A DNA stretch of 21,083 nucleotides from a virus (taxonomy: Duplodnaviria; Heunggongvirae; Uroviricota; Caudoviricetes), in IMG/VR virus record IMGVR_UViG_2802429228_000007, positions 1-21,083 of that record; one strand, given 5' to 3'. Shown here piece after piece: positions 9,582 to 21,083 of this stretch. The position numbers were made by a program, and so were the translations under genes. Below the pieces are notes generated by a model. The model had not been told where the DNA came from, made no database searches, and saw only the letters and a list, made by a program, of their open reading frames with translations. Position 1 is the first letter of the stretch, and each line of letters begins with the position of its first letter.

Positions 9582-10186
9582 GCGTTTACTCTCAGGTTAT
9601 CAATCAAATGGATGGCCGAGGCCGGGTAATATTCACCGCCGACGACAATCTCCTCGGGGGTGTAGGGGTAAACAGTCAGTGCGTCGCCGTGATAGCATCC
9701 CGCGCCGACATACAGTTCGCCGGTCGAGCTCAGACTGATAGCCAGCCCGGTCAGGTGGCGACTTGCCGGTTTGGCGTCTTCAATCAGGCGCTCAAGCTCC
9801 TGATACATTTCGTCAGTGATGCCGCTGTCGAGGACGCCAACAACGAGGCGGAATGTGCCTGGCTCCTCGTCGAGTTGCCACCACTCGCGCACCTCAATCA
9901 GAAAGCCGAGCGGCTCGACGACCCGACGCAATGCGCTGATGGTGCCTTTGTGCTGATGGACGAAAAACGAGGACGCGCAGACGCTGCGCTTTGTCGCCTC
10001 CGGCCATTTCTCATCCCACCTGTCGACCGACAGCGCCCACGCCAGATACGGCAGCAGCTTTACCGGGCAGGTGCGCCAGTTCCACAGGGTGCGCAGCGGT
10101 ACCGGCACGCGCTGAATCTCAGAGAACGCAGCGGCGGCGGCGACCTCCAGCGGCGACGAGCCAACGGGTAATAGCCGGTCATTCAT
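9578..10186 (-). CDS. I: Baseplate/tail protein gpI
   Basis: 202-aa ORF between J and H in the conserved V-W-J-I-H order; overlaps J (8 nt) and H (4 nt). Confidence 0.85.
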   Translation of the reverse strand: MNDRLLPVGSSPLEVAAAAAFSEIQRVPVPLRTLWNWRTCPVKLLPYLAWALSVDRWDEKWPEATKRSVCASSFFVHQHKGTISALRRVVEPLGFLIEVREWWQLDEEPGTFRLVVGVLDSGITDEMYQELERLIEDAKPASRHLTGLAISLSSTGELYVGAGCYHGDALTVYPYTPEEIVVGGEYYPASAIHLIDNLRVNA

Positions 10187-11087
10187 CCGAGCCCCCGATA
10201 GTTATCTGGTACTCGGTACAGTTCGACGCCTGCGACTTACTCAGCACTATGTCGGCCTGCGGTGATGTCAGCTCGACACGCTGCACCCCCTCAACATGCA
10301 GCGCCGCATAAATGGCTGACAGACGGATATCACGCCCGAGGCGGTGCTGCGCGCTGATGTAGCTCTGCAGCTTCTGCTCTGACGCCTGCCTGATGGGTTC
10401 AGATTCGGGGCCGGGGTAAACGTAGATCGTCGCGTCAATCTGGTACGGTACAATCTCGGCTGACTGGACGGTCACCCGGTCAGCCACCGGGCGCACATCT
10501 TCGGCGTTCAGCGCTTTATCAACAATCGCCAGTAGCTCAGGGCTGGCAGTGCCGTCACCCTCACGCGATAGCACGGTAATCGTCACGCAGGCTGGCGACG
10601 GGCTGGCGACCGAAACGTCAGCGACCCGCCCGTCGGCGCTGCGACCGTGATACTCATATGCACCGACCGGACCCGCCACGCTCAATCCCTCAAACGCCTG
10701 TTGCGTGCGCAGTCGCAGGTCGGTATCAGATTCCATAACGGCAGGTATCGGCGGGATGGTGGTATCATCCGCCGGGGTGATGGTCAGGCGTTCGGTATTA
10801 TTGTTCCCGGCTACGACGTCGAGGTCGTTACCGGCGGAGTAGGCCAGCGTCACCGCCTGCGTGGCTTCGTTCACCCGCTGACGCCAGATAACTTCACGGT
10901 AGGCGTTTTCCTGCAGCAGCTTAACAACCGGCTCTGACTCAAGTGTGAGCGTCCGGGCAATGGCCTCCTGCTGGTCTTCTGGATAGAGCGATATCAGCGT
11001 CGCTTTGCGTTCCGCAAGGATGGTTTCATAGTCCAGTTCCTCAACCACATCGGGAACGGGTAACTGACTCAGGTCAACGGTTGCCAT
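10179..11087 (-). CDS. J: Baseplate assembly protein gpJ
   Basis: 302-aa ORF (MATVDLSQLPVPDVVEELDYETILAERKA...) downstream of W. Size and N-terminal sequence are typical of gpJ. Confidence 0.9.
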   Translation of the reverse strand: MATVDLSQLPVPDVVEELDYETILAERKATLISLYPEDQQEAIARTLTLESEPVVKLLQENAYREVIWRQRVNEATQAVTLAYSAGNDLDVVAGNNNTERLTITPADDTTIPPIPAVMESDTDLRLRTQQAFEGLSVAGPVGAYEYHGRSADGRVADVSVASPSPACVTITVLSREGDGTASPELLAIVDKALNAEDVRPVADRVTVQSAEIVPYQIDATIYVYPGPESEPIRQASEQKLQSYISAQHRLGRDIRLSAIYAALHVEGVQRVELTSPQADIVLSKSQASNCTEYQITIGGSDE

Positions 11088-11093
11088 AGTTAT

Positions 11094-11441
11094 TTAACTC
11101 AGTGAAACAGTGGTTGAAACTGACGCACCGGTATCGGTACGCATCCCGGTAATATCGACATACATCTCGCCAGCGTCGCCGGCCTCAAAGCTGATGGATG
11201 TAAGCCTGATGCGCGGCTCCCACTTCTGGATAGCCGAATAGCACGCCACCATAATTTGCAGCCTGAGCGCCGGGTTTTGCGGCATATCAATCAGCGCCGA
11301 CAGAAGCGAGCCATATTCACGACGCATCACCCGCGAGCCGACCGGCGTCAGCAGAATATCGCGCATGCTCTGGCTGATATGCTCGGTATCGCTGATGCCA
11401 AGGCCGGTATTTCGGTTCATCCCCTGATAGCGCGCCGTCAT
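11094..11441 (-). CDS. W: Baseplate assembly protein gpW (gp25/GPW family)
   Basis: 115-aa ORF. Overlaps the V stop in an ATGA arrangement. Size and position match gpW. Confidence 0.9.
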   Translation of the reverse strand: MTARYQGMNRNTGLGISDTEHISQSMRDILLTPVGSRVMRREYGSLLSALIDMPQNPALRLQIMVACYSAIQKWEPRIRLTSISFEAGDAGEMYVDITGMRTDTGASVSTTVSLS

Positions 11442-12073
11442 AACGGTGCCCCCGTTTGCCCGCCGCTGTCGCCCGGGTGTTTATGGGTGTGGAGTACCTT
11501 GCCATTAGACGACAGTGACCCGCCGGTATGTTCGATATTGCCGCTCATCTTGCCGCCTTTCTGCACCTCAAGCGTCGCCGTCGTTAGCTTATTGGTGCAA
11601 ATCACCTCCGGGGTGTCGAGGGTGATACTGGTCGAGGCTTTCACCAGTACCAGCGGTACGGTTGCGGTGATGGACTCCGATGCCGTCACGTCGGCCGTTT
11701 TTATGCCGCTGACCGTCAGCGCGCCGGTTTCGGGCTCGTACTCAATGACCGCACCATCAGGGAAAGCCACATGCCACGCATCCGCCGAGGCAGACGGGGC
11801 GGGGTTATCGTCGGAGAAAATACCCGGCAGCACGAAAGCGGTATCAAGCTCGCCACCGATTGCCAGCAGCAGAACCTGCTCACCGACCGAGGGAGCCCAC
11901 CACGTCCGCGAACGACCGGCTCGGGTGGTCAGCCAGTTCAGCCAAGTGGTTTGCATCCCCCCGGTCTGGATACGACATAGCCCCTCCTTGAGGTCTACGT
12001 CGCTAACGATGCCGGTACGGATGAGATTTCGGATCGCGCGTGCGATTTCTTGCAAAGAATTTAGATTTTTCAT
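11438..12073 (-). CDS. V: Baseplate spike protein gpV
   Basis: 211-aa ORF, ATG at 12073. C-terminal HTHKHPGDSGGQTGAP motif is typical of gpV-type spikes. First gene of the V-W-J-I-H block. Confidence 0.9.
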   Translation of the reverse strand: MKNLNSLQEIARAIRNLIRTGIVSDVDLKEGLCRIQTGGMQTTWLNWLTTRAGRSRTWWAPSVGEQVLLLAIGGELDTAFVLPGIFSDDNPAPSASADAWHVAFPDGAVIEYEPETGALTVSGIKTADVTASESITATVPLVLVKASTSITLDTPEVICTNKLTTATLEVQKGGKMSGNIEHTGGSLSSNGKVLHTHKHPGDSGGQTGAPL

Positions 12074-12204
12074 ATGGGAAGGATGACGCCCGGCAAGATT
12101 AGTGGCAATCGAGATGGATTCTGTGAGGAATGAAACAACTTCTGAGAGGTCTACTCAACATCTATGAAATCTTGTGAGAATTAATTAGAATAGCCAAGTT
12201 GAAT

Positions 12205-12771
12205 ATGCAATTACCCTGGCTCACAGTAAAAAATGAAGGTGTTTGGCAAATGACTGAAAGAAAAAAAACCTTAGGCGATGATGAGGTTGTGCCTTATTTT
12301 AATAACGATTGTGAACAAATAAAATTCGAATTTGCTTATTTAATAGTTCTTTTTGTAATAGGTTGCATTCTCGCCTTTCTTTTCCAATTTGTTTTTGAGC
12401 TGTCATATAATAATAAAATATCTTTGTTTTCTATTCTTGGCGGCTTTTTTGGAGGGTGGGTGTATAATGCAAAATGGTTTTATAGAGTAACTGCTAGAGG
12501 GAAAAACAATCAGTATAATTTTCCTTGGGAATCCCATAAGTTCTACTGGAGGATTTTTATTCCGTTCTTAGCTGCTTTAGTGGCTTTTTGTTCTTATACG
12601 ATATTATCTCCGGATACGTTTGTATCCTCCATTAAAGGGCATGGTAAGACCAAAATTGCATTCTCGATTTGTTTTATATTAGGATATTTTTCAGACTTAG
12701 TTCTAAGCCGACTCGCATCTTGGGCTGAAAAATTGCTCCCTAAAAAACCAGGAGACAATAAACGTGAATAA
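12205..12771 (+). CDS. Predicted 4-TM inner-membrane protein, unknown function (cargo cassette gene 1)
   Basis: AT-rich ORF on the opposite strand to the flanking tail genes. Four hydrophobic segments (FAYLIVLFVIGCILAFLFQFVF, ISLFSILGGFFGGWVY, IFIPFLAALVAFCSYTIL, IAFSICFILGYFSDLVL) and a K/R-rich C-terminus. Start uncertain: TTG 12199, ATG 12205, or ATG 12250 preceded by an AAGGTG Shine-Dalgarno-like sequence. Stop overlaps the next gene's GTG start by 8 nt. Confidence 0.6.
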   Translation: MQLPWLTVKNEGVWQMTERKKTLGDDEVVPYFNNDCEQIKFEFAYLIVLFVIGCILAFLFQFVFELSYNNKISLFSILGGFFGGWVYNAKWFYRVTARGKNNQYNFPWESHKFYWRIFIPFLAALVAFCSYTILSPDTFVSSIKGHGKTKIAFSICFILGYFSDLVLSRLASWAEKLLPKKPGDNKRE

Positions 12772-13408
12772 TTCTTGTAATTCGTTCTGTGGAATATGCG
12801 ATGAAATAAATGGCATTAGCCTTATCAAAGGATACGATGAAATCGTAAATGACAAGAAAAATATCATTGCAGAAACAAATGATTTTCTAATTGTACCTAG
12901 TATTGGCCCGCTAAATAATTCGCATGTGATGCTGATTCCTAAGCGGCATATCAACTCCTTTGCTGCTCTTGATCGAGATACCCGGAGTAATGGCAAGGAG
13001 ATTCTGCGAGAACTTAATGAATTTATAATCCACCAATCTGGTAGATCTCTAATTTTCTTTGAAAGCGGAGCAGGTGAAAATATAGATCGTTCAGGAGGGT
13101 GCATTTCTCACGCTCATATACACTGTGTTTATTATACACAAGAGTTTGAAAATGCTCTAAATAAAGAAATTAACTTTAAGAAAATTGAAGGTGAGAATTT
13201 AAGTTTTGACATTAAAAATGGATATGTGTGGTATATGAGTAATAGTTATGATGAATTTTTATGCAACAAACCACTCTTACCATCTCAGTTCCTTAGATAT
13301 CTTTATTCTAATGCAAATTTGATACATGGCAATTGGAATTGGCGCAGAGATAACAACATCAGCGGTGTTCTAGAGGTTATTGATAATTACGCAGATTTCA
13401 AACTATAA
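12764..13408 (+). CDS. HIT-like (histidine triad) nucleotide hydrolase/transferase superfamily protein with a C-terminal extension of unknown function (cargo cassette gene 2)
   Basis: 214-aa ORF, GTG start 7 nt after an AGGAG Shine-Dalgarno. N-terminal CxxC (FCGICDE). HVMLIPKRHI segment resembles the Fhit/Hint H.L..P..H core. Histidine-triad motif HAHIHCV (H-x-H-x-H-x-x) preceded by SGGC. About 85 further C-terminal residues with no recognisable motif. AT-rich. Confidence 0.6.
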   Translation: MNNSCNSFCGICDEINGISLIKGYDEIVNDKKNIIAETNDFLIVPSIGPLNNSHVMLIPKRHINSFAALDRDTRSNGKEILRELNEFIIHQSGRSLIFFESGAGENIDRSGGCISHAHIHCVYYTQEFENALNKEINFKKIEGENLSFDIKNGYVWYMSNSYDEFLCNKPLLPSQFLRYLYSNANLIHGNWNWRRDNNISGVLEVIDNYADFKL

Positions 13409-13413
13409 AATCA

Positions 13414-13434
13414 AGGCTGGTGTTTATCCAGCCT
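13414..13434. terminator. Stem-loop between convergent HIT-like gene and gpS (probable terminator of the R-S late operon, possibly bidirectional)
   Basis: 7-bp perfect stem AGGCTGG (13414-13420) / CCAGCCT (13428-13434) with a 7-nt loop. On the minus strand it is followed by UGAUUUUAUAGU. It sits 5 nt after the HIT-like stop and 28 nt after the S stop. Confidence 0.5.
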
Positions 13435-13462
13435 CATCACAAAATAATATATTAGATCATAA

Positions 13463-13909
13463 TTAATCCAAAGCCCCAATTATTAACCGCTCAATAATTC
13501 TCATATCTATACTATTGAAACCGAGCAACGGGCGCGCCTCGTACTGCACATCCCGGCTGTTACGGTTTGGCCGGTCTTTGAGGCCGTACTGATGAACCCG
13601 CGCCATGCGCTGCACCTTGCCGGTAAACTCCACCACCGCCGCACTGTCGCTGCCTTTGGCTTTCATAAAGCGACTGGTGCGCAGTTTGGCGAACATTTCA
13701 CGTTTAATCCGACCTTTCTTGCTCCGCACCGGCTGGCGCTTTCGTGCCGCATACGGGGTGCCGTCGGGTGCCTGCTGGCGCTTGATACGCTGTTGCTGAC
13801 TGGTACGCAGCTTTTTCGCAATCTCAGCCGCCATTTGCCGACGTGCCGCCGGTGACAGGCTGGCAATCAGACCTGCAAGGCGTTCCTGCAGCGCGGTTAA
13901 TTCACTCAT
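13463..13909 (-). CDS. S: Tail completion protein gpS
   Basis: 148-aa basic ORF overlapping the R stop by 8 nt; conserved R-S pairing upstream of the baseplate block. Confidence 0.85.
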   Translation of the reverse strand: MSELTALQERLAGLIASLSPAARRQMAAEIAKKLRTSQQQRIKRQQAPDGTPYAARKRQPVRSKKGRIKREMFAKLRTSRFMKAKGSDSAAVVEFTGKVQRMARVHQYGLKDRPNRNSRDVQYEARPLLGFNSIDMRIIERLIIGALD

Positions 13910-14378
13910 CCCACTTACTCACCAGTTCGCCGTTAACGTACAGCTCGACCGGGCGCGTCACCGGCTCAGGCAGTGGCGGCTCAGGGGCATAGCTGACGTG
14001 CAGCGCGCCGTCGACCTCTTTGACGAGCGTGCGCTCGGTGAGCCTCAGGCTGATACTGATATCGAGCGAATCGTCGTTATTGATATCAATAATCCAGGTG
14101 AATCCTTTTTCCCGCCCGTCGTCGGTGGTCATAATGTCCGGCTGATGTTCACGCAGCCACGCCTGCACCGGCACGAATATCAAATCAAGGTCACCGGTGA
14201 AGTCGGTCACCACCACGTTAAGCACGTACACCTTTTCAAACGACAGCGAGCTCGCCAGTCGGGAATCGGTATGGCCGTTGTCGGCAAAAAGGCGCAGCAT
14301 ATCGGGATTATTTCGGAGCTGCGGCACGGCGTTAATCAGCGCTTTGCGCAGGCTTTTGTGCTTCTGCATCGAGTTCAT
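13902..14378 (-). CDS. R: Tail completion protein gpR
   Basis: 158-aa ORF immediately downstream of the spanin genes; position and size match gpR. Confidence 0.85.
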   Translation of the reverse strand: MNSMQKHKSLRKALINAVPQLRNNPDMLRLFADNGHTDSRLASSLSFEKVYVLNVVVTDFTGDLDLIFVPVQAWLREHQPDIMTTDDGREKGFTWIIDINNDDSLDISISLRLTERTLVKEVDGALHVSYAPEPPLPEPVTRPVELYVNGELVSKWDE

Positions 14379-14622
14379 CCTGACAGTGTTTGACGGTTTT
14401 AACCTGCAGCGCGCAGGCGGTCAGCGCGCCCTCAAGACGGCGGATATCTGCGCTCAGGTCACCATTGGTTTTCGGGTCACTTCCCGGCATCGGACAAAGG
14501 CTCACCCTCGGGCATCCGCTGACCACAATCACCGGCACTGGCGCAGGCGGTGCGGGTGTGCAGCCGACGCACAACATCAGGCAAAGCAGCGTTATACCAG
14601 CGGCGAAAGGCTTCATTTTCAT
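14332..14622 (-). CDS. lysC: o-spanin (Rz1-like outer-membrane lipoprotein), LysC equivalent
   Basis: 96-aa ORF starting inside lysB in another frame, with a GAGG Shine-Dalgarno 8 nt upstream of ATG 14622. Signal peptide with lipobox-like LCVGC followed by the proline-rich stretch TPAPPAPVPV, typical of Rz1/o-spanins. Extends past the lysB stop into R. Confidence 0.7.
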   Translation of the reverse strand: MKMKPFAAGITLLCLMLCVGCTPAPPAPVPVIVVSGCPRVSLCPMPGSDPKTNGDLSADIRRLEGALTACALQVKTVKHCQDELDAEAQKPAQSAD

Positions 14623-14890
14623 TAAGTAACCTCGTTATCGTCTGCTCACGGCGGCTGGCCTCTGCGCTGGCCTTTGCGAGCTGTTCGCGCAGTTCCACCT
14701 GCGCGGATTCATTACGTCGGGCAAGCTGACCGGCAACACTGAGCTGATTTTTCAGCATGCCAATCGTCGTCTTTTGTTCGCTTGCGACGCGGTTTGCCGT
14801 CTCAAAGGAGCGGGATAAATTGCCGTTCTCATGGCGCAACCACAGCAGCCCGAGCACGGCCAGCACCAGCAGCGTTATCAGGATTTTCAT
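14477..14890 (-). CDS. lysB: i-spanin (Rz-like), LysB equivalent
   Basis: ATG at 14890 (MKILITLLVLAVLGLLWL...): N-terminal TM helix followed by a coiled-coil-like periplasmic domain, 137 aa. In this sequence the reading frame is continuous upstream with the truncated gene A. Confidence 0.75.
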   Translation of the reverse strand: MKILITLLVLAVLGLLWLRHENGNLSRSFETANRVASEQKTTIGMLKNQLSVAGQLARRNESAQVELREQLAKASAEASRREQTITRLLNENEAFRRWYNAALPDVVRRLHTRTACASAGDCGQRMPEGEPLSDAGK

Positions 14891-16767
14891 GCCATCACCC
14901 CGCCAGCCGTGCGCCACACAGTGACCAGTTTGTGAACTCCGAGGGACGGCTTTGCCGTCCTGAAGGTCAACGGCCAAATCAACAGCATGCTTCGGAACAA
15001 TCTTCCACTGAGTGAGCCGGGTTAAAATCGGGCTACCTGCACCTATGGAGGAATCGTAGACCCCCTTAATACATACCGTTTCCTCACCGTACTGATTAAG
15101 CTCGGTACGTGGTTCATACAGTGTGCGCACCTGTAAATCATCGCGACGGACAAACGGTCCACCCTGCGCATTAACATAACCAGCCCAGTCACCAGCGTCG
15201 GCGGCATCATGGACGGCGGCAAACTCAACGCTCAGTCCGTGCGCGGTTTCGGTATCAGCGAGGCGACGCAACTCACGGTAAACCGTCACCGGCGCACCAC
15301 CGATAAACTGAAACTGACGGATGTGCCAGCGCGAAGCCCATGCTGAAACGGCGGGGGCTGTCTCTTTCAGCAGTTCACCGCTTTCATCATCGGTTTCACC
15401 ATCGAGAGCATAACCGTCGATATTTTTTGATATGTATTTAGCAACATAGCCGGTTGCGCTGCCTTTCTCCGGGTCAATGGACTCGGCGTGGAAACGTGCT
15501 TTTTTTGCCTTATCGCTTTTCAGTTCGCGGCGGTCTTCTTTCCACGCGTATTTACGGACGATGGAGCGAACATATTCAACATCTTCCGGCAGCATGAACA
15601 TCAGCATGTGCCAGTGTGGAGTACCGTCGTGATGGGGCTCGGCGACACGAATACCGAAAATACGGACATCTTCCCGATGCAGTTTGGCACGGATACGCGC
15701 CCAGATATCAGTTAGATAGTTTTGCGTGTCAGCCGGGCTGGCACCGCTCCATTTGCTGTTACGGTAACCGGCTTTAGTCGTGGCGTGATATTTCGACGGC
15801 GCGGTCAGAGTGTAAAACTCACCGACATAACCGAGCTCATTACAGATGTTTTCAAACCCACGAATGCGAGTCATGAGCTCACAGCGGCGAATCGCAGGGT
15901 TAGCAACTGAGCCATCATATTTTTCAATCAGGCTGATACGGTTGCCGTCTTCGTCTTCGAGATCCAGACCTTTGAGAAATTCACGAGTTCGGCGCTTTTG
16001 TTCACGCCAGTCAGTCACGCAGTTTTTACTCGCATAGGTGTTTTTTTTCTTGCTGACGTTGCCGACTGCAATTTGCAGGTGTTCGCGCCACGTAGCTGCA
16101 ACCCGGCGCAAACGACCACGCCACCACCCATCGTTAAACATCTTGGCGATAGCCGGTGCGATTTCATCCGCGCCAACATATTTTTTGCAACCCGATCCCA
16201 ATGGGGGGGGATAACGTTGAACTGGAGGGAAATAAAGCCAGCACGATTATACCAGGTGTACAGCGTTTTAAGCTCGCCGAATCCGTGGTCATTAATGTTG
16301 GCAAGTTCACCACGAATGAAATTAGCAATATCGGCGGCCAACAGGTCAACATCAGCGCGCGACATATCCGGGAGGCGGTTATATCGGGCGACCATATTAA
16401 CCATGCGTGACGCCAGATATTGCATAAGCTGGGTATCAAAATGACTTCCAAAAACAGAGGTTGATACCTTGCTGTTGATACCCGCGCATTCGTATTTTTT
16501 TGCGACCAATTCAAGACGCGGCAATGCCTTTTTGCAGAAGCTGATCAAAAAGGCATTGGCTCGTTGAATGCCCTGATTTTGCTCCAGCACTGCCGCAGTG
16601 CGATAAACATCTAACCGCACGCAGTCGGGCTGGAGAGAAAGCACCTTTTTAGCATGCAGCATCGCCGCGAACATACGGTCGCGGCGATGCTGTTGCTTAT
16701 AAGTAAGGTATGGGCTGGCTATAGCCGATCGTGGAGCATTCCACGGATAAGCGAATTGAACAGCCAA
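14891..16767 (-). pseudogene. A: Replication initiator gpA (rolling-circle endonuclease), frameshifted and 3'-truncated, running in frame into lysB
   Basis: N-terminal part in the 16767..16015 frame (TTG start after a GGGGGG Shine-Dalgarno; YPWNAPRS, NRLPDM). The remainder is in the 16201..14891 frame with hallmark motifs IAKMFNDGWW, FYTLTAPSKYH, EPHHDGTPHWHMLMF and YVAKYISKNIDGYALDG. The frames switch at a C8 run (plus-strand G8 at 16203-16210). There is no stop between the A-like sequence and the lysB ATG. Confidence 0.8.
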
Positions 16768-16768
16768 T

Positions 16769-16990
16769 TTATACCCCCCGATAGTGTTTGTTTTTTAGCT
16801 CTGCGATTTGCTGACAAGTCACGCAAAATGCCACCCCCTGAATTGCAGCACGGCGAGCTTCCGGGATTGGTGAGTCACATTCTTCGCAGAGGAAAGGAGA
16901 GGACGCTGCTATACGGCTGCGCGCGTTGCTGATGTGGCGCTCGCGGTCTTCCTGCTCGCGCAGTTGTGCTAAATCCATTGCGTCGGCCAT
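16769..16990 (-). CDS. TraR/DksA-family C4 zinc-finger protein
   Basis: 73-aa ORF with CEECDSPIPEARR...AFCVTCQ (CxxC-N17-CxxC). Start overlaps the upstream gene stop (TAATG-type coupling). Confidence 0.7.
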   Translation of the reverse strand: MADAMDLAQLREQEDRERHISNARSRIAASSPFLCEECDSPIPEARRAAIQGVAFCVTCQQIAELKNKHYRGV

Positions 16991-17217
16991 TAGTGCAGCT
17001 CCTGTGATTCGTTTTCGTAGCGGGTGGCCTCACGGCGCAGCAGTTCAGCGGCTTCGGTGCCGTTCATGCCCTCTTTAGTGATATGGATAGCCAGCGCCTC
17101 AAGACGGATTGAAACGGCGAGTGCGCGGTCTTTGCGTTCTTCTTTTTTTGCATCTGTCAGCAGCACGGCCAGCGTGTCACTATCAGTATTAAAACTACGG
17201 GGTTCGGTATTACGCAT
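16990..17217 (-). CDS. Hypothetical early-region protein
   Basis: 75-aa ORF with an AGGAG Shine-Dalgarno about 8 nt upstream of ATG 17217; translationally coupled to the TraR-like gene. Confidence 0.5.
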   Translation of the reverse strand: MRNTEPRSFNTDSDTLAVLLTDAKKEERKDRALAVSIRLEALAIHITKEGMNGTEAAELLRREATRYENESQELH

Positions 17218-17283
17218 AACTAACTCTCCTGATTTTGGGCAATAAAATGCCCGGCGGGTTTACGCCATTAATTTCTGTTTTGG

Positions 17284-17622
17284 TTAATTCGGCATGGTTA
17301 GCCGTTTGGGAAATAAGCTCACTACTGCACGAAAATGATTCATCGCTGTAATAAGCGCTTTTTTCTCGTCAGTAGTCAGCTCACTTAATTCGAGCTCATG
17401 ACGAGCCGCCGGTATTTTTGCCAGAAAGAAAATAGCGGCCAGCGCCCGATTATTTTCTTCAAATTGAGAGTCACGTTTATCGCGCATATCATCGACAAAG
17501 CGCTCAACCTCTTTCCAACTATCGCCCCAATATCTCGCGCGCAATTCAGCTACATGATTGAGACCGGCCAGACGTTCACCCGCTTTTAGCGGAATAGTCG
17601 CGGAAACAGCTTCGATAGCCAT
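17284..17622 (-). CDS. Hypothetical early-region protein
   Basis: 112-aa ORF in the early operon downstream of the fil-like gene; overlaps the fil-like 3' end by about 37 nt in another frame. No recognisable motif. Confidence 0.45.
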   Translation of the reverse strand: MAIEAVSATIPLKAGERLAGLNHVAELRARYWGDSWKEVERFVDDMRDKRDSQFEENNRALAAIFFLAKIPAARHELELSELTTDEKKALITAMNHFRAVVSLFPKRLTMPN

Positions 17623-17786
17623 GATTCCCCCAGCTTTTGAGTAGAGAGGCCAGCCAGTAAATCAGACTGAGAGCGGCACGGGTGCCAGCGCTTACCATCT
17701 TTACCCGCGATCCAGCCGTGACCGTAATGCATACCTGGATTTTGTTTAACGAGCAGAGATGCGAATGAGGGTTCATTTTTCAGCAT
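17586..17786 (-). CDS. fil: Phage 186 Fil-like small protein
   Basis: ATG at 17786 (MLKNEPSFASLLVKQNPGMHYGHGWIAGKDGKRWHPC...) preceded by a GAGGTG Shine-Dalgarno; position directly after cII as in phage 186. The ORF track's upstream extension begins at a TTG. Confidence 0.5.
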   Translation of the reverse strand: MLKNEPSFASLLVKQNPGMHYGHGWIAGKDGKRWHPCRSQSDLLAGLSTQKLGESWLSKLFPRLFR

Positions 17787-17793
17787 AAACACC

Positions 17794-18303
17794 TCATACC
17801 AAACCAAATGTTGCGCCGATGCCGGTCATGGTATCAACCACGCTCGACATTGCCGGGTTAGCCTGTAGACGCGCCTGTAACGCCAGCGCCGACAGAGACA
17901 ACATGCGGATGCCTGCATTAACACTCTCAACCATGCTGTGTTTGCGGTCAGAGGTCATACGTTCATTTGATACCGCACCGCTCGCCAGTTCGCCGAGTTC
18001 ACTCATTGCGCGCATCACATAAGACTGCAATTTCTCTTTAGCCAGCTCATTAACCGGCACGCATGGCAGACAATGTATTTGCGCCAGAAAGCCATCAACG
18101 AGGGTTGAGTCTTCGGTCAGGTCAGTCAGCAGCCACAATTCAGGCGGTGTGAATTGGTGAGGCTGTTCTGGGTTGAGCTTGTTACGTAACGTTTGAACGT
18201 TCATACCCGCACGCTCGGCCAGCTTCGCCATGTTGTGACGCTGCGCAAAAGCCCGGCACGCTTCGTCATAGTGAGGATGTTTAGAAATCTGAAAATCAAA
18301 CAT
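17794..18303 (-). CDS. cII: Phage 186 CII-like transcriptional activator (establishment of lysogeny)
   Basis: 169 aa from ATG 18303 (MFDFQISKHPHYDEACRAFAQRHNMAKLAERAGMNVQTLRNKL... with a helix-turn-helix) preceded by an AGAGGGAA Shine-Dalgarno. Position after the apl-like gene matches the 186 early operon. Confidence 0.7.
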   Translation of the reverse strand: MFDFQISKHPHYDEACRAFAQRHNMAKLAERAGMNVQTLRNKLNPEQPHQFTPPELWLLTDLTEDSTLVDGFLAQIHCLPCVPVNELAKEKLQSYVMRAMSELGELASGAVSNERMTSDRKHSMVESVNAGIRMLSLSALALQARLQANPAMSSVVDTMTGIGATFGLV

Positions 18304-18335
18304 GGTTAAATTCCCTCTAACTTGCATAATCAAAT

Positions 18336-18707
18336 TCAGTTAAGAGCGATGCGGTGGTCGATGTAGCGACAATCAATCGCTTGCTGGGTTAGTTTGTCGC
18401 GCCATGCTTTCACGTTTACGAGGGTGCGGCTTCGTTTTCCAGCCTCTTCCTTGTTGGAAAAGTCTTTAGTTGGAGCTTTGAGGAGGATTCCCTCATCAAG
18501 CCATTGCCAGACCAGACGCTCGCTTACACCGCGAGTGGCGGCAAAGTCTTTCACTGTCATTGTGTCTGACATAGCGGAGCGGATCATTGTCTGCAGAGCT
18601 GGCAGCATAGCGGTAACGATGGCATCAAACTGAGCCGGATCTAACAGCACAGTTTGATTTTGTGAGTTTTGCGAATCATGCGTCGAGATTGATTTTGCAT
18701 CTGACAT
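18336..18707 (-). CDS. Apl/Cox-like DNA-binding protein (excision/switch regulator)
   Basis: First gene of the operon divergent from cI. Excisionase-like helix-turn-helix (MTVKDFAATRGVSERLVWQWLDEG). The true start may be an internal Met; the N-terminal 50 aa or so are low complexity. Confidence 0.5.
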   Translation of the reverse strand: MSDAKSISTHDSQNSQNQTVLLDPAQFDAIVTAMLPALQTMIRSAMSDTMTVKDFAATRGVSERLVWQWLDEGILLKAPTKDFSNKEEAGKRSRTLVNVKAWRDKLTQQAIDCRYIDHRIALN

Positions 18708-18827
18708 ATCGCATTATCTCCTGTTGTTTGTAGTGAACTGCATTGATGTGCATCGTGGTTGATAATCATCACTTTAGTTCGCGAAATTTAATTTTGCAAT
18801 GGCAAAAATTAATTTTGGTGGCGATAC
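18708..18827. promoter_or_regulatory. cI / apl intergenic switch region (divergent genes; promoters and operators expected)
   Basis: 120-bp AT-rich spacer between divergently transcribed cI and apl-like genes. Contains the direct repeat TTAATTTTG twice (18788-18796 and 18809-18817, 21 bp apart) flanking an imperfect inverted repeat AATTTTGC-AATG-GCAAAAAT. No confident -35/-10 pair could be assigned by eye. Confidence 0.5.
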
Positions 18828-19664
18828 ATGGCTAAATTTGGAGATGGTGCGGCTCCGGCTATCGAAAGAATCCTTTCGGCTTATGGACTTAGCTCGCAAA
18901 AAGAACTTGGCGAAAAACTTGGTATTTATGCCAACAACATAAGCAGTTGGCTTGCCAGAGATAGCGTTCCGGGCAATGTATTTGTTGAATGTGCTATTGA
19001 AACGGGCGCAGATATCGGATGGTTAGTGACAGGGGAGCTTGCAAAAGCAAACTCTCCACGTGCGACCCTGAAGGGCAAAGAGCTTTATGAAAAGGTCATG
19101 GCTTCAGGTGGTAAACCTGTTCTGAGACGCATCCTTGATGCTTACGGTTTTTCTATGCAAAAGGAGCTGGGTGATTTACTCGGTATATCATCTGGAACAA
19201 TTAGCACATGGGTTCGGCGTGATTTTTTCCCAGGCGATGTAGTTGTTACTTGTGCCCTTGATACTGGTGTTTCGCTGGAATGGTTAGCAACCGGCAAGGG
19301 GCAAATGCGAACTAACAGAGAAATGGTCACATCAAGTTTTTCAATTAAAAAATTTCGCCTTGAAGCGGGTGAGCTTAAGGACGCTGGCGAATGGCATCCA
19401 GACCCCTCGATGATACCCTCTGACTCAGAGGAGTTGATTTTTGTTGAAGGTGTTGGAGCCTCTTGGCTTGTCAACCGTTCTGCTTCGAACATAAGTAATG
19501 GGCGTTGGTTAATTGATATTGACGGCGCTCTTGATGTTTTTGATGTAATTCGTCTTCCCGGCGGAAAAGTCAGGTTGTCAAATAAGTCTGCCGAGTTTGA
19601 ATGCAGCATTACAGATATCACACCAGTAGGTGCTGTAATTTTCACATTGGAAAAACACGTATAA
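18828..19664 (+). CDS. cI: 186-type CI immunity repressor with tandemly duplicated N-terminal DNA-binding domain
   Basis: 278-aa ORF. Two N-terminal repeats of the phage-CI-repressor helix-turn-helix fold (RILSAYGLSSQKELGEKLGIYANNISSWLARDSVPGNVFVECAIETGADIGWLVTGE and RILDAYGFSMQKELGDLLGISSGTISTWVRRDFFPGDVVVTCALDTGVSLEWLATGKG). C-terminal domain (GRWLIDIDGALDVFDVIRLPGGKVRL...FECSITDITPVGAVIF) resembles the 186 CI oligomerisation domain. Confidence 0.75.
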   Translation: MAKFGDGAAPAIERILSAYGLSSQKELGEKLGIYANNISSWLARDSVPGNVFVECAIETGADIGWLVTGELAKANSPRATLKGKELYEKVMASGGKPVLRRILDAYGFSMQKELGDLLGISSGTISTWVRRDFFPGDVVVTCALDTGVSLEWLATGKGQMRTNREMVTSSFSIKKFRLEAGELKDAGEWHPDPSMIPSDSEELIFVEGVGASWLVNRSASNISNGRWLIDIDGALDVFDVIRLPGGKVRLSNKSAEFECSITDITPVGAVIFTLEKHV

Positions 19665-19672
19665 GGGACATT

Positions 19673-20011
19673 ATGAAACGTAAGCTTTTTTTAGCTTTAT
19701 TTCTTTCACTTTCTTTCGGTGCATCAGCCGCTGAAAAAACACAGGATTTAGACGGTGCTAAGTTTGGTGATGATTGGCCGTTAACTTTTGAAAAAGCTAC
19801 GGTGTCTTGTGTTAATGGTAGATATGCCTTTGTGTACGACAAAGCAACAGATGACCGATACCCATTAAATGGGTTTGCTATTGATGGTGTAAAGTCTGGA
19901 AAGCTTGAGGGGAGCGATATTGATACTGTTTGGAAAGATAGCCCGGATTATGAAGGAGTAAAAATTCCTTTGGATCCCGTAATGGATGCTGCGACAGCAC
20001 TTTGCGAATGA
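19673..20011 (+). CDS. Small secreted protein, DUF2511/YebY-like (cargo between cI and int)
   Basis: ATG at 19673 after an AAGGGA Shine-Dalgarno. Sec-type signal peptide (MKRKLFLALFLSLSFGASAAE). Mature protein of about 90 aa with two Cys (ATVSCVNG ... AATALCE) and a YPLNGFAIDG motif that resembles my recollection of E. coli YebY. Confidence 0.5.
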   Translation: MKRKLFLALFLSLSFGASAAEKTQDLDGAKFGDDWPLTFEKATVSCVNGRYAFVYDKATDDRYPLNGFAIDGVKSGKLEGSDIDTVWKDSPDYEGVKIPLDPVMDAATALCE

Positions 20012-20033
20012 TAAGAGTTGCCTCGGTGACATT

Positions 20034-21083
20034 ATGACTATAAGTAAGCAAAAAAATGGCAAATGGTTATGTGAGCTTTATCCTAATGGGCGAGAAGGGC
20101 GGCGAATACGTCGGCAATTCAATACCAAAGGTGAGGCCGAGGCATTCGAAGCATTTACGAAAAGCGAGAGTGAAGATAAGCCGTGGCTCGGCAAGAAAGA
20201 AGACCGCCGACGCTTAAGTGAGATTATCCAGCTTTGGCATAATTTACATGGACAGGCGTTGGTCGCCAGTAAGTCGCGGTTAGCTAAGCTTCAAATTGTA
20301 TGTAACGGGTTGGGCGACCCTATTGCATCTCGTCTTACCGCTAAAGATTGGGCTCATTACCGTGACCGTCGATTACGTGGCGAAATAGACAACGGCTATC
20401 ACAAAGACCCGGCGAAATGGATCGCCAAACCTATAACAGTCAATCGCGAACAGCAATACCTCGAAGCTGTGTTCAATGAACTGCGGCGATTAGGTGAATG
20501 GAGTTTACCCAATCCACTGGACGGGATTCGTGTATTCAAAGAAGCTGAGAAAGAAATGTCCTGGCTAACTTTGTCTCAGCTCCCGGAGCTGTTCCGAGCC
20601 TGTGAACAATATGGCAAAGAAAATCTTACTATGATTGTTAAGGTGTGCCTGGCTACTGGCGCACGATGGGGAGAAGCTGAGAGACTTACACGTCCCCAAC
20701 TTTCCCCCTGCAAGCTGACTTTCACCAAAACCAAAGGTAAGAAGAATCGCACGGTTCCGATTCCTAAATGGCTGTATGACGAGTTGTCCGAACGTCAGGG
20801 AAGAATGTTCAAGCCCTGCTATCAGGACTTTAAGAAGATGCTCAAACTCACAAACATTGAATTGACTGAAGGGCAGAAAACGCACGTTTTACGTCACACC
20901 TTTGGCGCGCATTTTATGATGAATGGCGGCAATATCCTTGTACTCCAGAAGATACTCGGTCACGCAAATATTCGTGAAACAATGAAGTATGCGCACTTTG
21001 CTCCTGACCATCTTGAACAAGCTGTCACCTTGAATCCGTTGTCACTGTGTATTGGCGACAACGTGGCGGCAGAGGTTGCGTAA
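20034..21083 (+). CDS. int: P2-type tyrosine integrase
   Basis: Starts MTISKQKNGKWLCELYPNGREGRRIRRQFNTKGEAEAFE, closely matching my recollection of the P2 Int N-terminus. C-terminal catalytic motifs ATGARWGEA, HVLRHTF and NIRETMKYAHFAPDHL (tyrosine nucleophile context). TAA at 21081-21083 ends at the window edge. Confidence 0.9.
   Translation: MTISKQKNGKWLCELYPNGREGRRIRRQFNTKGEAEAFEAFTKSESEDKPWLGKKEDRRRLSEIIQLWHNLHGQALVASKSRLAKLQIVCNGLGDPIASRLTAKDWAHYRDRRLRGEIDNGYHKDPAKWIAKPITVNREQQYLEAVFNELRRLGEWSLPNPLDGIRVFKEAEKEMSWLTLSQLPELFRACEQYGKENLTMIVKVCLATGARWGEAERLTRPQLSPCKLTFTKTKGKKNRTVPIPKWLYDELSERQGRMFKPCYQDFKKMLKLTNIELTEGQKTHVLRHTFGAHFMMNGGNILVLQKILGHANIRETMKYAHFAPDHLEQAVTLNPLSLCIGDNVAAEVA

What the first reader, a model, noticed from the sequence alone, without database searches (positions are those of the whole stretch)
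14477..14960. Gene A runs in frame into lysB: the head, packaging, holin and endolysin block is absent
Seen in sequence: the gpA-like frame (last recognisable segment ...KAVPRSSQTGHCVAHGWRGDG) continues without a stop into the lysB start codon (MKILITLLVL...), followed by lysC, R and S. Established knowledge: in P2/186-type prophages A and lysB are separated by the rest of the early region, cos, portal, terminase, scaffold, capsid, head-completion, holin and endolysin genes. Inference: a large deletion (on the order of 10 kb or more) left an element with intact-looking tail, immunity and integrase genes but no capsid or lysis enzymes. Such tail-only remnants are raw material for tailocin-like particles or satellite/helper interactions, and the retained cargo genes suggest the element is kept for host benefit.
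Basis: partly seen in the sequence, partly recalled or inferred. Interest (0 to 1): 0.7.

Follow-up and report, generated by a model that had tools for sequence, protein, structure and literature searches.

The report
Recently crippled 186-like prophage remnant
A circulating phage 186/P2-type prophage in Escherichia marmotae lost about 10-11 kb (origin, SOS switch, packaging site, head genes, one tail gene, holin, endolysin) in one recent deletion that starts inside the phage's own replication origin; this is ordinary prophage decay, not a domesticated tail machine.

Summary
On the minus strand, the gene A frame runs without a stop into lysB, then lysC, R and S. The junction is window 14934|14933.

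- **What is missing:** about 9.7-11.4 kb compared with full-length relatives. It holds the last 129 codons of A, a LexA-box/DinI-like module, cos, portal, terminase, scaffold, capsid, head completion, tail gene X, holin and all but 47 nt of the endolysin.
"QTGHCVAHGWRGDG" is endolysin 3' DNA read out of frame, not A. In this window A also carries a real A7->A6 frameshift.
- **Not an artefact:** the junction occurs in at least 10 independent assemblies.
- **Recent event:** near-identical full-length prophages exist (99.9% left arm, 99.97% right arm). One sits in the same host background.
- **Decay series:** full length, then deletion, then frameshift, then a second 1.07-kb deletion in the immunity region.
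- **Tailocin or satellite readings are not supported:** X, lysis enzymes, the pO late promoter, SOS module, cos and ori are gone.
- **Suggestive finding:** the left endpoint lies in the invariant ori core, 6 nt 3' of the annotated gpA nick. The junction has no microhomology. The right endpoint follows CCTCG, the same five bases that precede the nick.

The parts
14934..16767 (-). Truncated, frameshifted replication initiator gene A. It holds codons 1-611 of about 740 counted from the TTG start. The HUH motif (HWHMLMF) and the two-tyrosine motif (GYVAKYISK) are retained. The last 129 codons are deleted.
   Evidence: Pfam Phage_GPA, E = 3e-121. The alignments to L001 and L002 are 96% identical with a single 1-nt gap. 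The alignments end at 14934.
16181..16186 (-). A6 homopolymer where sister elements have A7. This -1 frameshift splits A into ORFs of 250 codons and 574 (called as 513) codons.
   Evidence: The same split ORFs occur in five other assemblies (L023, L026, L027, L029, L030), so it is a real mutation rather than a read error.
14944..14960 (-). Retained ori hairpin GGACGGC-AAA-GCCGTCC, lying immediately 5' of the nick motif.
   Evidence: Alignment A1 shows a stem-loop at the same place with different, self-complementary arms in other phages: P2 (GCGGC/GCCGC), 186 (GGGCGC/GCGCCC), and E. coli 0H26 and ABWA45 (GGCGGC/GCCGCC).
14934..14943 (-). Retained left half of the invariant ori core, CTCG^GAGTTC. 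The nick, placed by homology, falls between 14940 and 14939. The right half, TGTCAATAACTGT, is deleted.
   Evidence: P2 RefSeq annotates rep_origin 'nick site at ori' at 29892. The 186 record annotates 28576. Core invariance is shown. Only this 47-nt stretch is conserved in divergent A genes.
14933..14934 (-). Deletion junction (...CCCTCGGAGTTC|ACAAACTGGTC...) with zero microhomology.
   Evidence: The junction is identical in L004, L005, L006, L023, L024, L026-L030 and L039.
14887..14933 (-). The 47-nt 3' remnant of the GH24 endolysin gene, including its stop codon. It carries the native ribosome-binding region of lysB.
   Evidence: It reads KLVTVWRTAGGVMA* in the K frame, identical to the end of the L002 endolysin.
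14477..14890 (-). lysB (Rz-like i-spanin, 137 aa). It is intact and fused in frame to the upstream A frame.
   Evidence: 100% identical to L002 LysB. Annotation.
14332..14577 (-). lysC (Rz1-like o-spanin, 81 aa).
   Evidence: 100% identical to L002 LysC.
13902..14369 (-). R, tail completion protein (155 aa). It is now without its late promoter.
   Evidence: Pfam P2_Phage_GpR. 100% identical to L002. In P2, R is part of the pO operon.
13463..13909 (-). S, tail completion / virion morphogenesis protein (148 aa). A terminator-like hairpin follows at 13436..13412.
   Evidence: Pfam Phage_tail_S. Terminator scan.
1..21083 (-). The whole window is the defective prophage, running from the int stop codon to the D stop codon. 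Gene order: int, DUF2511, CI, apl-like, cII, fil, DUF5347 gene, DUF2732, TraR-like, A', [deletion], lysB, lysC, R, S, [HIT-like and membrane cargo], V, W, J, I, H, [invertible segment with acyltransferase], FI, FII, E, T, U, D.
   Evidence: In sister contigs it sits between yfiB and ogr-rplS.

Best explanation
The window is a defective phage 186/P2-type (Peduoviridae) prophage of Escherichia marmotae, integrated between yfiB and rplS. It arose from a circulating, intact phage by one recent illegitimate deletion of about 10-11 kb.

**What the deletion joins and removes.** It joins codon 611 of replication gene A to the last 47 nt of the endolysin gene. It removes:
- the C-terminus of A and the right half of ori;
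- the LexA-controlled DinI-like (Tum-type) induction module and the variable cargo hotspot;
- cos, portal, both terminase subunits, scaffold, capsid and head-completion genes;
- essential tail gene X, the holin, nearly all of the endolysin, and the pP/pO late promoter region.

**Consequences.** The continuous A-lysB reading frame is an accidental by-product with no proposed function. In this window it is already broken by a frameshift. By inference, the remnant cannot replicate, be SOS-induced, be packaged, lyse the cell or build complete tails. What it can still plausibly provide is CI immunity and its cargo genes. It is continuing to decay.

**How the deletion arose (inferred, about 0.4-0.5).** It was initiated by the phage's own HUH initiator gpA at ori, in three proposed steps:
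1. gpA nicks at CTCG^GAGTTC.
2. The displaced strand is cut again at a pseudo-site, CCTCG^ACAAAC, in the endolysin gene.
3. A nascent 3' end, 6 nt past the nick, is joined to that 5' end.

Cells carrying the product would survive induction, because the replication, induction and lysis functions were lost together.
For: **Shown**
- The breakpoint is at 14934|14933 against every full-length relative. The content of the deleted block comes from annotated relatives.
- cos (GGCGTGGCGGGGAAAGCA) and the LexA box (CTGTATAAATATACAG) lie in the deleted block and are absent from the window.
- P2 RefSeq lists X as an essential tail gene. It places lysB, R and S in the pO operon.
- The same junction occurs in at least 10 assemblies.
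- Full-length prophages match the left arm at 99.87-99.94% (L033-L038, L040).
- L025 matches the right arm at 99.973%. Its rplS flank is 100% identical to that of deletion-bearing contigs.
- There is a decay series: intact, then deletion with a 732-aa fusion, then the added A7->A6 frameshift, then an added 1.07-kb CI-apl-cII deletion.

**For the ori step**
- The left endpoint is 6 nt 3' of the nick annotated in P2 (29892) and 186 (28576), inside the invariant core CTCGGAGTYC|TGTCAATAACTGT. A position within 6-10 nt of the nick, among about 14,000 possible positions, has a chance of about 0.001-0.002.
- The junction has zero microhomology. By contrast, the lineage's second deletion lies between TCACGCCG and TCACACCG repeats.
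- The deleted DNA lies on the 3' side of the nick on the nicked strand.
- The right endpoint directly follows CCTCG, identical to the 5 nt before the nick. It ranks 17 of 13,160 positions.
- In rolling-circle termination, synthesis is reported to run about 10 nt past the nick (Khan 2005, quoted in PMC5037232).
Against: **Core claim:** nothing found argues against it.

**ori/gpA step**
- The endpoint is 6 nt from the annotated nick, not at it.
- The nick has never been mapped in this phage. The P2 mapping paper (PMC332061) could not be read.
- The CCTCG match was noticed after the fact. It fades when more than about 6 nt are compared (1-4% rank).
- This is one event only. Scans found no second junction at this ori position (chance hits only, and only for this lineage's exact left-hand sequence). 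Likewise, 113 E. coli genomes with this ori showed no truncation there.

**Loss of function:** non-inducibility and tail failure are inferred from gene content, not tested.
Confidence: 0.85

Rival explanations
1. The deletion and the defective prophage are the same as in the best explanation, but the endpoints have nothing to do with ori. On this view the deletion was a generic illegitimate recombination or end-joining event, and the position in the ori core and the CCTCG match are coincidences. This rival concerns only the 'how it arose' step.
For: - The endpoint is 6 nt away from the annotated nick rather than at it.
- Only 5 nt of similarity exist at the right endpoint, and 5-mers shared between the two 60-nt contexts are common.
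- No other ori-ended junction was found.
Against: - The left endpoint falls inside a 23-nt invariant core out of about 14 kb of possible positions (about 0.2%).
- The junction has zero microhomology, whereas the other deletion in this lineage used an 8-nt imperfect repeat.
- The right endpoint matches the nick's 5' pentamer in the exact register the gpA model requires (17 of 13,160 positions).
Confidence: 0.45
2. The element is a domesticated tail-only module (an R-type tailocin or similar) kept by selection for host benefit.
For: - Thirteen late ORFs are full length with no internal stops: R, S, V, W, J, I, H, FI, FII, E, T, U and D.
- The late activator Ogr is present just outside the window in sister contigs.
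- The tail-fibre segment still inverts between isolates.
- Cargo genes are retained.
Against: - Essential tail gene X is deleted, and no Caudo_TAP fibre chaperone is present.
- The holin and endolysin are deleted.
- R and S have lost the pO promoter.
- The LexA-box module is deleted.
- The deletion is too young for ORF integrity to reflect selection: 4 substitutions in 14.9 kb relative to an intact prophage.
- The lineage shows further inactivating mutations.
- The junction was found in only a handful of near-identical E. marmotae assemblies. It is absent from 5,426 E. coli genomes and from all species-representative genomes.
Confidence: 0.05
3. The element is a satellite-like or helper-exploiting element that is mobilised or packaged by an intact P2-like helper phage.
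For: int and the apl-like gene are intact, so excision as a circle is conceivable. A superinfecting helper's Ogr could switch on the remaining late operons. This is inference only.
Against: - No cos-like site is present in the window.
- ori is halved, and A is truncated and frameshifted.
- There are no capsid-size-redirecting or helper-derepressing genes.
- The element is simply a deleted copy of a full phage.
Confidence: 0.03
4. The junction is an assembly artefact, or A is a naturally short protein followed by a normal intergenic region.
For: None found.
Against: - The junction is identical in at least 10 independent assemblies, on contigs of up to 240 kb with host flanks on both sides.
- The full-length A of near-identical phages continues for another 129 codons through the same nucleotides.
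- The junction is followed by the 3' end of the endolysin gene, not by an intergenic region.
Confidence: 0.01

Closest known systems
Phage 186 (Eganvirus ev186), PSP3 and Escherichia phage vB_EcoM-613R3, plus the intact yfiB-rplS prophages of E. coli (SF-468, AST217) and E. marmotae (GCA_050991045.1)
   Same: The gene order and families match: int-CI-apl-cII-fil...A early region, A with ori inside the gene, a lysB/lysC-R-S block and the V-to-D tail operons. Nucleotide identity is 93-99% to E. coli prophages. It is 99.9% (left arm) and 99.97% (right arm) to the closest full-length copies.
   Different: This element lacks about 10-11 kb, from ori to the endolysin 3' end, and has a frameshift in A. 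It also carries a different tail-fibre module: a Gly_rich_2 C-terminus, an acyltransferase inside an invertible segment, and no Caudo_TAP chaperone.
Defective or cryptic P2-like prophages of Enterobacteria, for example the P2-related defective prophage of E. coli B and the small P2 remnant of K-12 (recalled from memory, not tested here)
   Same: These are P2-family prophages that have lost essential genes by deletion and remain as immobile remnants. They may still supply immunity, cargo or recombination substrates.
   Different: Here the intact parent, the first deletion and two later decay steps are all sampled at more than 99.9% identity. The age and order of events can therefore be read directly. 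One endpoint lies in the replication origin.
R-type tailocins derived from P2-like tails (R-pyocins, carotovoricin Er, xenorhabdicin; recalled from memory)
   Same: They have contractile-tail gene clusters of P2 ancestry without head genes. Carotovoricin Er also has an invertible tail-fibre segment.
   Different: Tailocin loci keep a complete tail set, including the gpX homologue and a fibre chaperone, plus a holin/endolysin cassette and an inducible regulator. They lack integrase and early phage genes. This element fails each of these points.
Nick-site deletions made by rolling-circle initiators (M13 gene II protein, pC194 Rep; Michel and Ehrlich 1986, recalled from memory), and rolling-circle termination about 10 nt past the nick (Khan 2005, as quoted in PMC5037232)
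   Same: One deletion endpoint lies at or next to the initiator's nick in ori. No homology is seen at the junction. The second endpoint resembles the nick's 5' flank.
   Different: The endpoint is 6 nt 3' of the annotated nick rather than at it. The event is in a large temperate phage or prophage. No experiment links gpA to it.

Membership tests
P2/186-like (Peduoviridae) prophage | Early region int-CI-apl/cox-cII...A, with a Phage_GPA HUH initiator. | tested here: met
   Pfam hits for Phage_CI_repr and Phage_GPA. Sister-contig gene calls show Phage_integrase, Phage_CP76, Phage_186_Fil and zf-dskA_traR. Megablast to 186-like phages gives 84-93% identity.
P2/186-like (Peduoviridae) prophage | P2-type tail operons (R S / V W J I H / FI FII E T U D), followed by the Ogr/B late activator. 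| tested here: met
   Ogr_Delta (72 aa) lies just outside the window in L009.
P2/186-like (Peduoviridae) prophage | Integration in a bacterial chromosome with host flanks on both sides. | tested here: met
   The element lies between yfiB (OmpA family) and rplS in L004, L009 and L039. This is the same site as the E. coli relatives.
Defective (cryptic) prophage | Loss of genes or sites essential for a productive cycle, measured against an intact relative. | tested here: met
   cos, Q, P, O, N, M, L, X, holin and endolysin, plus the 3' end of A and half of ori, are absent. A is also frameshifted.
R-type tailocin (phage-tail-like bacteriocin) | A complete contractile-tail gene set, including the gpX-type hub protein and a tail-fibre chaperone. 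| tested here: not met
   Phage_tail_X lies in the deleted block. No Caudo_TAP ORF follows H, and an acyltransferase occupies that position.
R-type tailocin (phage-tail-like bacteriocin) | A dedicated lysis cassette (holin plus endolysin) for particle release. | tested here: not met
   The holin is deleted and only 47 nt of the endolysin remain. Only the spanins LysB and LysC are left.
R-type tailocin (phage-tail-like bacteriocin) | Stress-inducible regulation and conservation as a host locus, as evidence of selection. | tested here: not met
   The LexA box and DinI-like module are deleted, and no CTGT-N8-ACAG box is present in the window. The junction is seen only in near-identical E. marmotae assemblies. 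It is absent from 5,426 E. coli genomes and from species-representative genomes. Further decay is seen in the lineage.
R-type tailocin (phage-tail-like bacteriocin) | Production of tail particles with killing activity. | not testable with these tools
   This needs induction, electron microscopy and spot assays.
Phage satellite / helper-dependent element | A packaging site (cos or pac) recognised by the helper's terminase. | tested here: not met
   The 186-type cos sequence is present in L002, L003 and L018 and absent from the window.
Phage satellite / helper-dependent element | Its own replicon and helper-manipulating genes. | tested here: not met
   ori is halved, and A is truncated and frameshifted. 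The cargo ORFs tested gave no PADLOC or NCBIfam hits, and no further families appear in the Pfam hits and gene calls.
Rolling-circle-initiator (HUH) nick-site deletion | One endpoint exactly at the initiator's nick in ori. | tested here: inconclusive
   The endpoint lies inside the invariant ori core but 6 nt 3' of the nick annotated for P2 and 186. The nick has not been mapped in this phage.
Rolling-circle-initiator (HUH) nick-site deletion | No homology at the junction, with a second endpoint at a sequence resembling the nick site. | tested here: met
   Microhomology is 0 nt. The right endpoint follows CCTCG, the same 5 nt as those before the nick, ranking 17 of 13,160 positions. Similarity does not extend further.
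Rolling-circle-initiator (HUH) nick-site deletion | Dependence of the deletion on the initiator protein. | not testable with these tools
   This needs genetics (A+ versus A- lysogens) or in vitro cleavage and joining assays.

The most novel reading that the evidence does not exclude
The deletion was made by the phage's own rolling-circle initiator. On this reading, gpA nicked ori and cut the displaced strand again at a CCTCG^A pseudo-site in the endolysin gene. It then joined a nascent 3' end, 6 nt beyond the nick, to that 5' end. In one step this removed ori, the SOS switch, cos, the head genes and the lysis enzymes, and so turned a lethal induction into a surviving, immune, defective lysogen. 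If this is general, HUH-initiator 'self-amputation' at ori would be a specific route by which P2-like prophages become cryptic.
Probability: 0.35. Interest if true: 0.5.

Novelty: new member of a known kind. Interest (0 to 1): 0.27.

Why it matters
**Mainly a corrective.** An 'intact-looking tail cluster without heads' is here a very young deletion mutant of a circulating phage. It is not a domesticated weapon, and its intact ORFs say nothing about selection. NCBI annotates the 732-aa fused ORF of sister assemblies as 'Rz-like lysis system protein LysB'. That label hides a chimera of A, an out-of-frame endolysin stretch and lysB.

**Two points of modest wider value:**
1. The public data hold a rare stepwise series at more than 99.9% identity: intact prophage, then deletion, then frameshift, then a second deletion. 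Such a series is useful for timing and ordering prophage decay.
2. One endpoint sits in the replication origin, next to the initiator's nick. This gives a testable hypothesis that rolling-circle initiators drive prophage inactivation.

Tried and rejected
- **Junction searches.** The exact junction 22-mer was not found in species-representative genomes. No E. coli complete genome spans it.
- **Exact look-ups that found nothing.** These were the 574-aa mechanical ORF and the 383-aa acyltransferase ORF, because gene callers chose other start codons.
- **Looking for independent junctions at the same ori position.** I scanned with the left ori half followed by any base other than T. Viral contigs gave 0 hits. 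Species genomes gave 1 hit and metagenomes gave 1 hit, and both are unrelated chance matches. A 400-nt ori-centred query against E. coli genomes showed only full-length matches or core-only matches. The short A proteins in the homologue list are N-terminal truncations or contig ends that still contain SSVNNC, so they are not truncated at ori.
- **Literature on the exact P2 nick.** The Liu and Haggard-Ljungquist 1994 paper (PMC332061) is not held. Sequence-string and keyword searches gave nothing usable. I therefore rely on the RefSeq rep_origin features.
- **Late-promoter dyad.** TGT-N12-ACA was not found upstream of V or FI with a strict pattern. I make no claim about pV or pF.
- **Cargo genes.** PADLOC and NCBIfam gave no hits for the cargo ORFs.
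- **Inverted repeats.** The repeat finder missed the inversion sites. They were located by comparison with L010 instead.
- **Rejected readings.** Assembly artefact, naturally short A, tailocin and satellite are rejected (see the rival explanations).
Full report
**1. What is in the sequence**

All relevant genes are on the minus strand. Reading downwards from 21083, the window holds:
- int, a DUF2511 gene and CI (these three on the plus strand);
- an apl-like gene, cII, fil, a DUF5347 gene, DUF2732 and a TraR-like gene;
- replication gene A (from 16767);
- lysB, lysC, R and S;
- two AT-rich cargo genes on the plus strand;
- V, W, J, I and H;
- an acyltransferase on the plus strand;
- FI, FII, E, T, U and D.

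The ORF 16201..14477 reads ...DGKAVPRSS-QTGHCVAHGWRGDG-MKILITLLVL... without a stop.

**2. Mapping the junction**

Megablast to phages and to 5,426 complete E. coli genomes shows two homology blocks that abut at window 14934|14933. The junction was aligned to three annotated full-length relatives: phage vB_EcoM-613R3 (L001), E. coli SF-468 (L002) and AST217 (L003). The missing block is 11,179 bp relative to L002 and 9,744 bp relative to L003. The size varies with the cargo hotspot between A and the portal gene.

According to the relatives' annotation, the block holds:
- the last 129 codons of A;
- a 60-aa ORF and a DinI-like ORF behind a perfect LexA box (CTGTATAAATATACAG);
- hotspot cargo, which is a CBASS system in L018;
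- cos (GGCGTGGCGGGGAAAGCA);
- the portal, large terminase, scaffold, major capsid, small terminase and head completion genes;
- tail protein X, the holin, and the GH24 endolysin except for its last 47 nt.

The window contains no cos-like site and no CTGT-N8-ACAG box.

The P2 reference record states two further points. The pO transcript covers O N M L X Y K lysA lysB R S. X, R and S are essential tail genes. The pP/pO activator site lies between P and O, which is inside the deleted block.

**3.

- **The quoted tail of A.** A-derived sequence stops at ...PRSS. The 14 residues QTGHCVAHGWRGDG come from the endolysin's last codons (KLVTVWRTAGGVMA*), read in the lysB frame. This stretch also carries lysB's native translation start region.
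- **A frameshift in A.** In this window an A7 run has become A6 (16186..16181). The first 250 codons of A therefore sit in a different frame from the part that enters lysB.

**4. Not an artefact, and who carries it**

A protein search found a 732-aa protein that is 100% identical to the fused frame. It has an unbroken A N-terminus and is annotated by NCBI as 'Rz-like lysis system protein LysB [Escherichia marmotae]'.

Exact-protein look-ups recovered the same junction on many independent contigs, including:
- GCA_053097245.1, on a 230-kb contig, and GCA_053098125.1, on a 240-kb contig;
- the runs ERR13369481, SRR35509424, SRR31021664, SRR31284069, SRR14001010, ERR13599831 and ERR14979981.

All are 99.97-100% identical to the window. 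Where both flanks are visible, the element lies between yfiB and ogr-rplS. The host flank is only about 88% identical to E. coli. This fits a non-coli Escherichia and explains why no E. coli genome holds the junction.

**5. Age and direction of change**

- **Left arm.** Full-length prophages in E. coli hosts are 99.87-99.94% identical to the window over 6,151 bp. Their alignments end exactly at 14934 (L033-L038, L040).
- **Right arm.** A full-length prophage with the same unusual tail-fibre module (L025, GCA_050991045.1; also L031) is 99.973% identical over 14,933 bp. Its alignment starts exactly at 14933. Its rplS flank is 100% identical to that of deletion-bearing contigs, against 97.9% for E. 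coli.

The public data therefore hold a four-step series:
1. the intact prophage;
2. the deletion, with a 732-aa fused ORF;
3. the deletion plus the A7->A6 frameshift, which is the window's state and occurs in at least five other assemblies, so it is a real mutation;
4. both of these plus a further 1,070-bp deletion (window 18145..19214). This removes the CI N-terminus, apl and the cII N-terminus, and lies between imperfect repeats TCACGCCG and TCACACCG (L026).

This is stepwise decay of a very recently crippled prophage.

**6. What the remnant can and cannot do**

These points are inferred from gene content.
- **Lost:** replication (A truncated and frameshifted, ori halved), SOS induction (LexA-box/DinI-like module, the counterpart of 186 p95-tum), packaging (cos, terminase), heads, and lysis enzymes.
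- **Tail genes kept:** thirteen late ORFs are full length with no internal stops. Twelve of them are 93.6-100% identical to their L002 counterparts; H carries a different C-terminal module.
- **Tail genes missing or stranded:** X is gone. No Caudo_TAP fibre chaperone is present. R and S now sit behind the early operon instead of pO.
- **Still possible:** a terminator-like hairpin follows S, so lysB, lysC, R and S could at most be reached by read-through from the early promoter.
- **What plausibly remains:** CI immunity and the cargo genes.

Given 4 substitutions in 14.9 kb since the intact form, intact ORFs carry no information about selection. The tailocin, satellite and 'kept for host benefit' readings are therefore not supported.

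**7. How the deletion may have arisen**

- **Where the nick is annotated.** The P2 RefSeq record annotates 'nick site at ori' at 29892 (CTC[G]GAGTCCTGTCAATAAC). The 186 record annotates 28576, by similarity to P2.
- **What the ori looks like.** Alignment of P2, 186, this lineage and two divergent E. coli A genes shows a hairpin whose arms differ between phages but stay complementary. An invariant core, CTCGGAGTYCTGTCAATAACTGT, follows it. In divergent A genes, this roughly 47-nt stretch is the only part conserved at the DNA level.
- **Left endpoint.** The deletion junction cuts the core as CTCG^GAGTTC|TGTCAA. That is 6 nt 3' of the annotated nick. The deleted DNA lies on the 3' side.
- **No microhomology.** The junction has none, unlike the lineage's second deletion.
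- **Right endpoint.** In the parents the right endpoint reads ...CAGCCTCG|ACAAAC, so it directly follows the same pentamer that precedes the nick. In that register it ranks 17 of 13,160 positions. The similarity does not extend further, falling to 1-4% rank for longer windows.
- **A model that fits all four features.** gpA nicks ori. It then cuts the displaced strand at the pseudo-site. The 5' end created there is joined to a nascent 3' end that has run 6 nt past the nick. Rolling-circle termination is reported to run about 10 nt past the nick (Khan 2005, quoted in PMC5037232).

I rate gpA involvement at about 0.4-0.5, for four reasons. It rests on one event. The CCTCG match was seen after the fact. 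The nick is not mapped in this phage. I could not read the original mapping paper. Scans for further ori-ended junctions found only chance hits.

**8. Comparison with known systems, and verdict**

The element is a member of the 186/P2 group and of the general class of defective prophages. It fails the defining features of tailocins and of satellites. The nick-site deletion idea is a resemblance to M13 and pC194 precedents (recalled from memory) and is not demonstrated.

Novelty is a new member of a known kind. Interest is low to moderate. The finding is real but ordinary. Its two useful by-products are the sampled decay series and the ori-adjacent endpoint.

**9. Seen in passing**

- **Invertible segment.** The 2,335-bp stretch 6502..8836 inside tail-fibre gene H is inverted in one metagenome scaffold that is otherwise 99.95-100% identical (L010).
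  - Its ends are inverted sites, TTCTCGAATACCTTGGTTTAACAGATTC and TTCTTTCAAAGGTTGGTTTGGAAGATTC. From memory, they resemble hix/gix-type crossover sites.
  - Flipping changes H from 461 aa (Gly_rich_2 C-terminus) to 322 aa. It also turns a low-GC acyltransferase gene (Acyl_transf_3) from antisense to co-directional with the tail operon.
  - The segment has no match in 50,697 phage records beyond a trivial 131-nt hit, and none in 5,426 E. coli genomes.
  - No invertase gene is present in the window.
- **Other items** are listed in the noticed-in-passing section.

Noticed in passing
window 6502-8836 (crossover sites about 8821-8854 and 6486-6520); L010 2335-4669: A 2,335-bp invertible segment lies inside tail-fibre gene H. 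It is flipped in metagenome scaffold L010, which is otherwise 99.95-100% identical. The end sites, TTCTCGAATACCTTGGTTTAACAGATTC and TTCTTTCAAAGGTTGGTTTGGAAGATTC, look like hix/gix-type sites (from memory). The segment carries a low-GC Acyl_transf_3 gene (6749-7900, plus strand) instead of fibre chaperones. Flipping changes H from 461 aa to 322 aa and reverses the acyltransferase relative to the tail operon. No invertase gene is in the window. The segment has no match in the phage collection beyond a trivial 131-nt hit, and none in 5,426 E. coli genomes. It may be an orientation-dependent, phase-variable LPS-modification gene.
   Followed up: partly
window 16181-16186: An A7->A6 frameshift in gene A is shared with L023, L026, L027, L029 and L030 but absent from L004, L005, L006, L024, L028 and L039. 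It is a real, later mutation within the deletion-bearing lineage.
   Followed up: yes
window 18145-19214 (absent in L026, ERR14979981): One sister assembly has a second deletion of 1,070 bp. It removes the CI N-terminus, the pR/pL region, apl and the cII N-terminus, and lies between imperfect direct repeats TCACGCCG and TCACACCG. It is a further decay step that should abolish immunity.
   Followed up: partly
window 7767 and 7798-7799 (3' end of the acyltransferase gene): A T-run/C-run varies between isolates: T7C2 in the window, T7C1 in L004, L006 and L039, and T8C1 in L005. The called acyltransferase products are 340 or 362 aa as a result. This is either slipped-strand variation or decay.
   Followed up: partly
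window 12199-13408 (plus strand): An AT-rich (GC about 0.35-0.38) two-gene cargo island lies between S and V, the position of orf30 in P2. One gene encodes a 190-aa protein with no family hit (hydrophobic stretches by eye). The other encodes a 214-aa HIT/DcpS-like protein. Neither hits PADLOC or NCBIfam. The island is also present in full-length E. coli relatives.
   Followed up: partly
window 19601-20011 (plus strand): A DUF2511/YebY-like gene lies between int and CI. It is another conserved cargo gene of this phage lineage.
   Followed up: no
L018-L021 13635-15546; L033-L040 about 13400-16100; L002 3939-6644: The hotspot between A/DinI and the portal gene, which lies within the block deleted here, carries different cargo in otherwise near-identical full-length prophages. 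In L018-L021 it is a CBASS pair (DncV-like NTase plus a Cap15-like effector). In L033 and L002 it is unrelated ORFs.
   Followed up: no
L033-L038 and L040 versus L004 and L039 (left arm 5908-12058; host flank 1-5800): The prophage left arm is 99.9% identical in hosts whose adjacent chromosomal DNA is only about 88% identical (E. coli versus E. marmotae). This indicates very recent spread of this phage across Escherichia species into the same yfiB-rplS site.
   Followed up: partly
P0001 (L004 10001-12199): NCBI names the 732-aa chimera of A(1-580), 14 out-of-frame endolysin codons and LysB as 'Rz-like lysis system protein LysB'. This annotation error hides a pseudogene fusion.
   Followed up: yes
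L004 and L039 host flank, about 3705-4937: The diguanylate cyclase gene dgcN/yfiN, called as a 408-aa product in L005 and in E. coli flanks, is not called in two deletion-bearing assemblies. It may be a pseudogene next to the prophage.
   Followed up: no
window 14944-14960; alignment A1: The ori hairpin just 5' of the nick motif shows different but self-complementary arms in P2, 186, this lineage and two divergent E. coli prophages. This is consistent with a structured recognition element for gpA. Only five sequences were compared and no formal statistics were run.
   Followed up: partly
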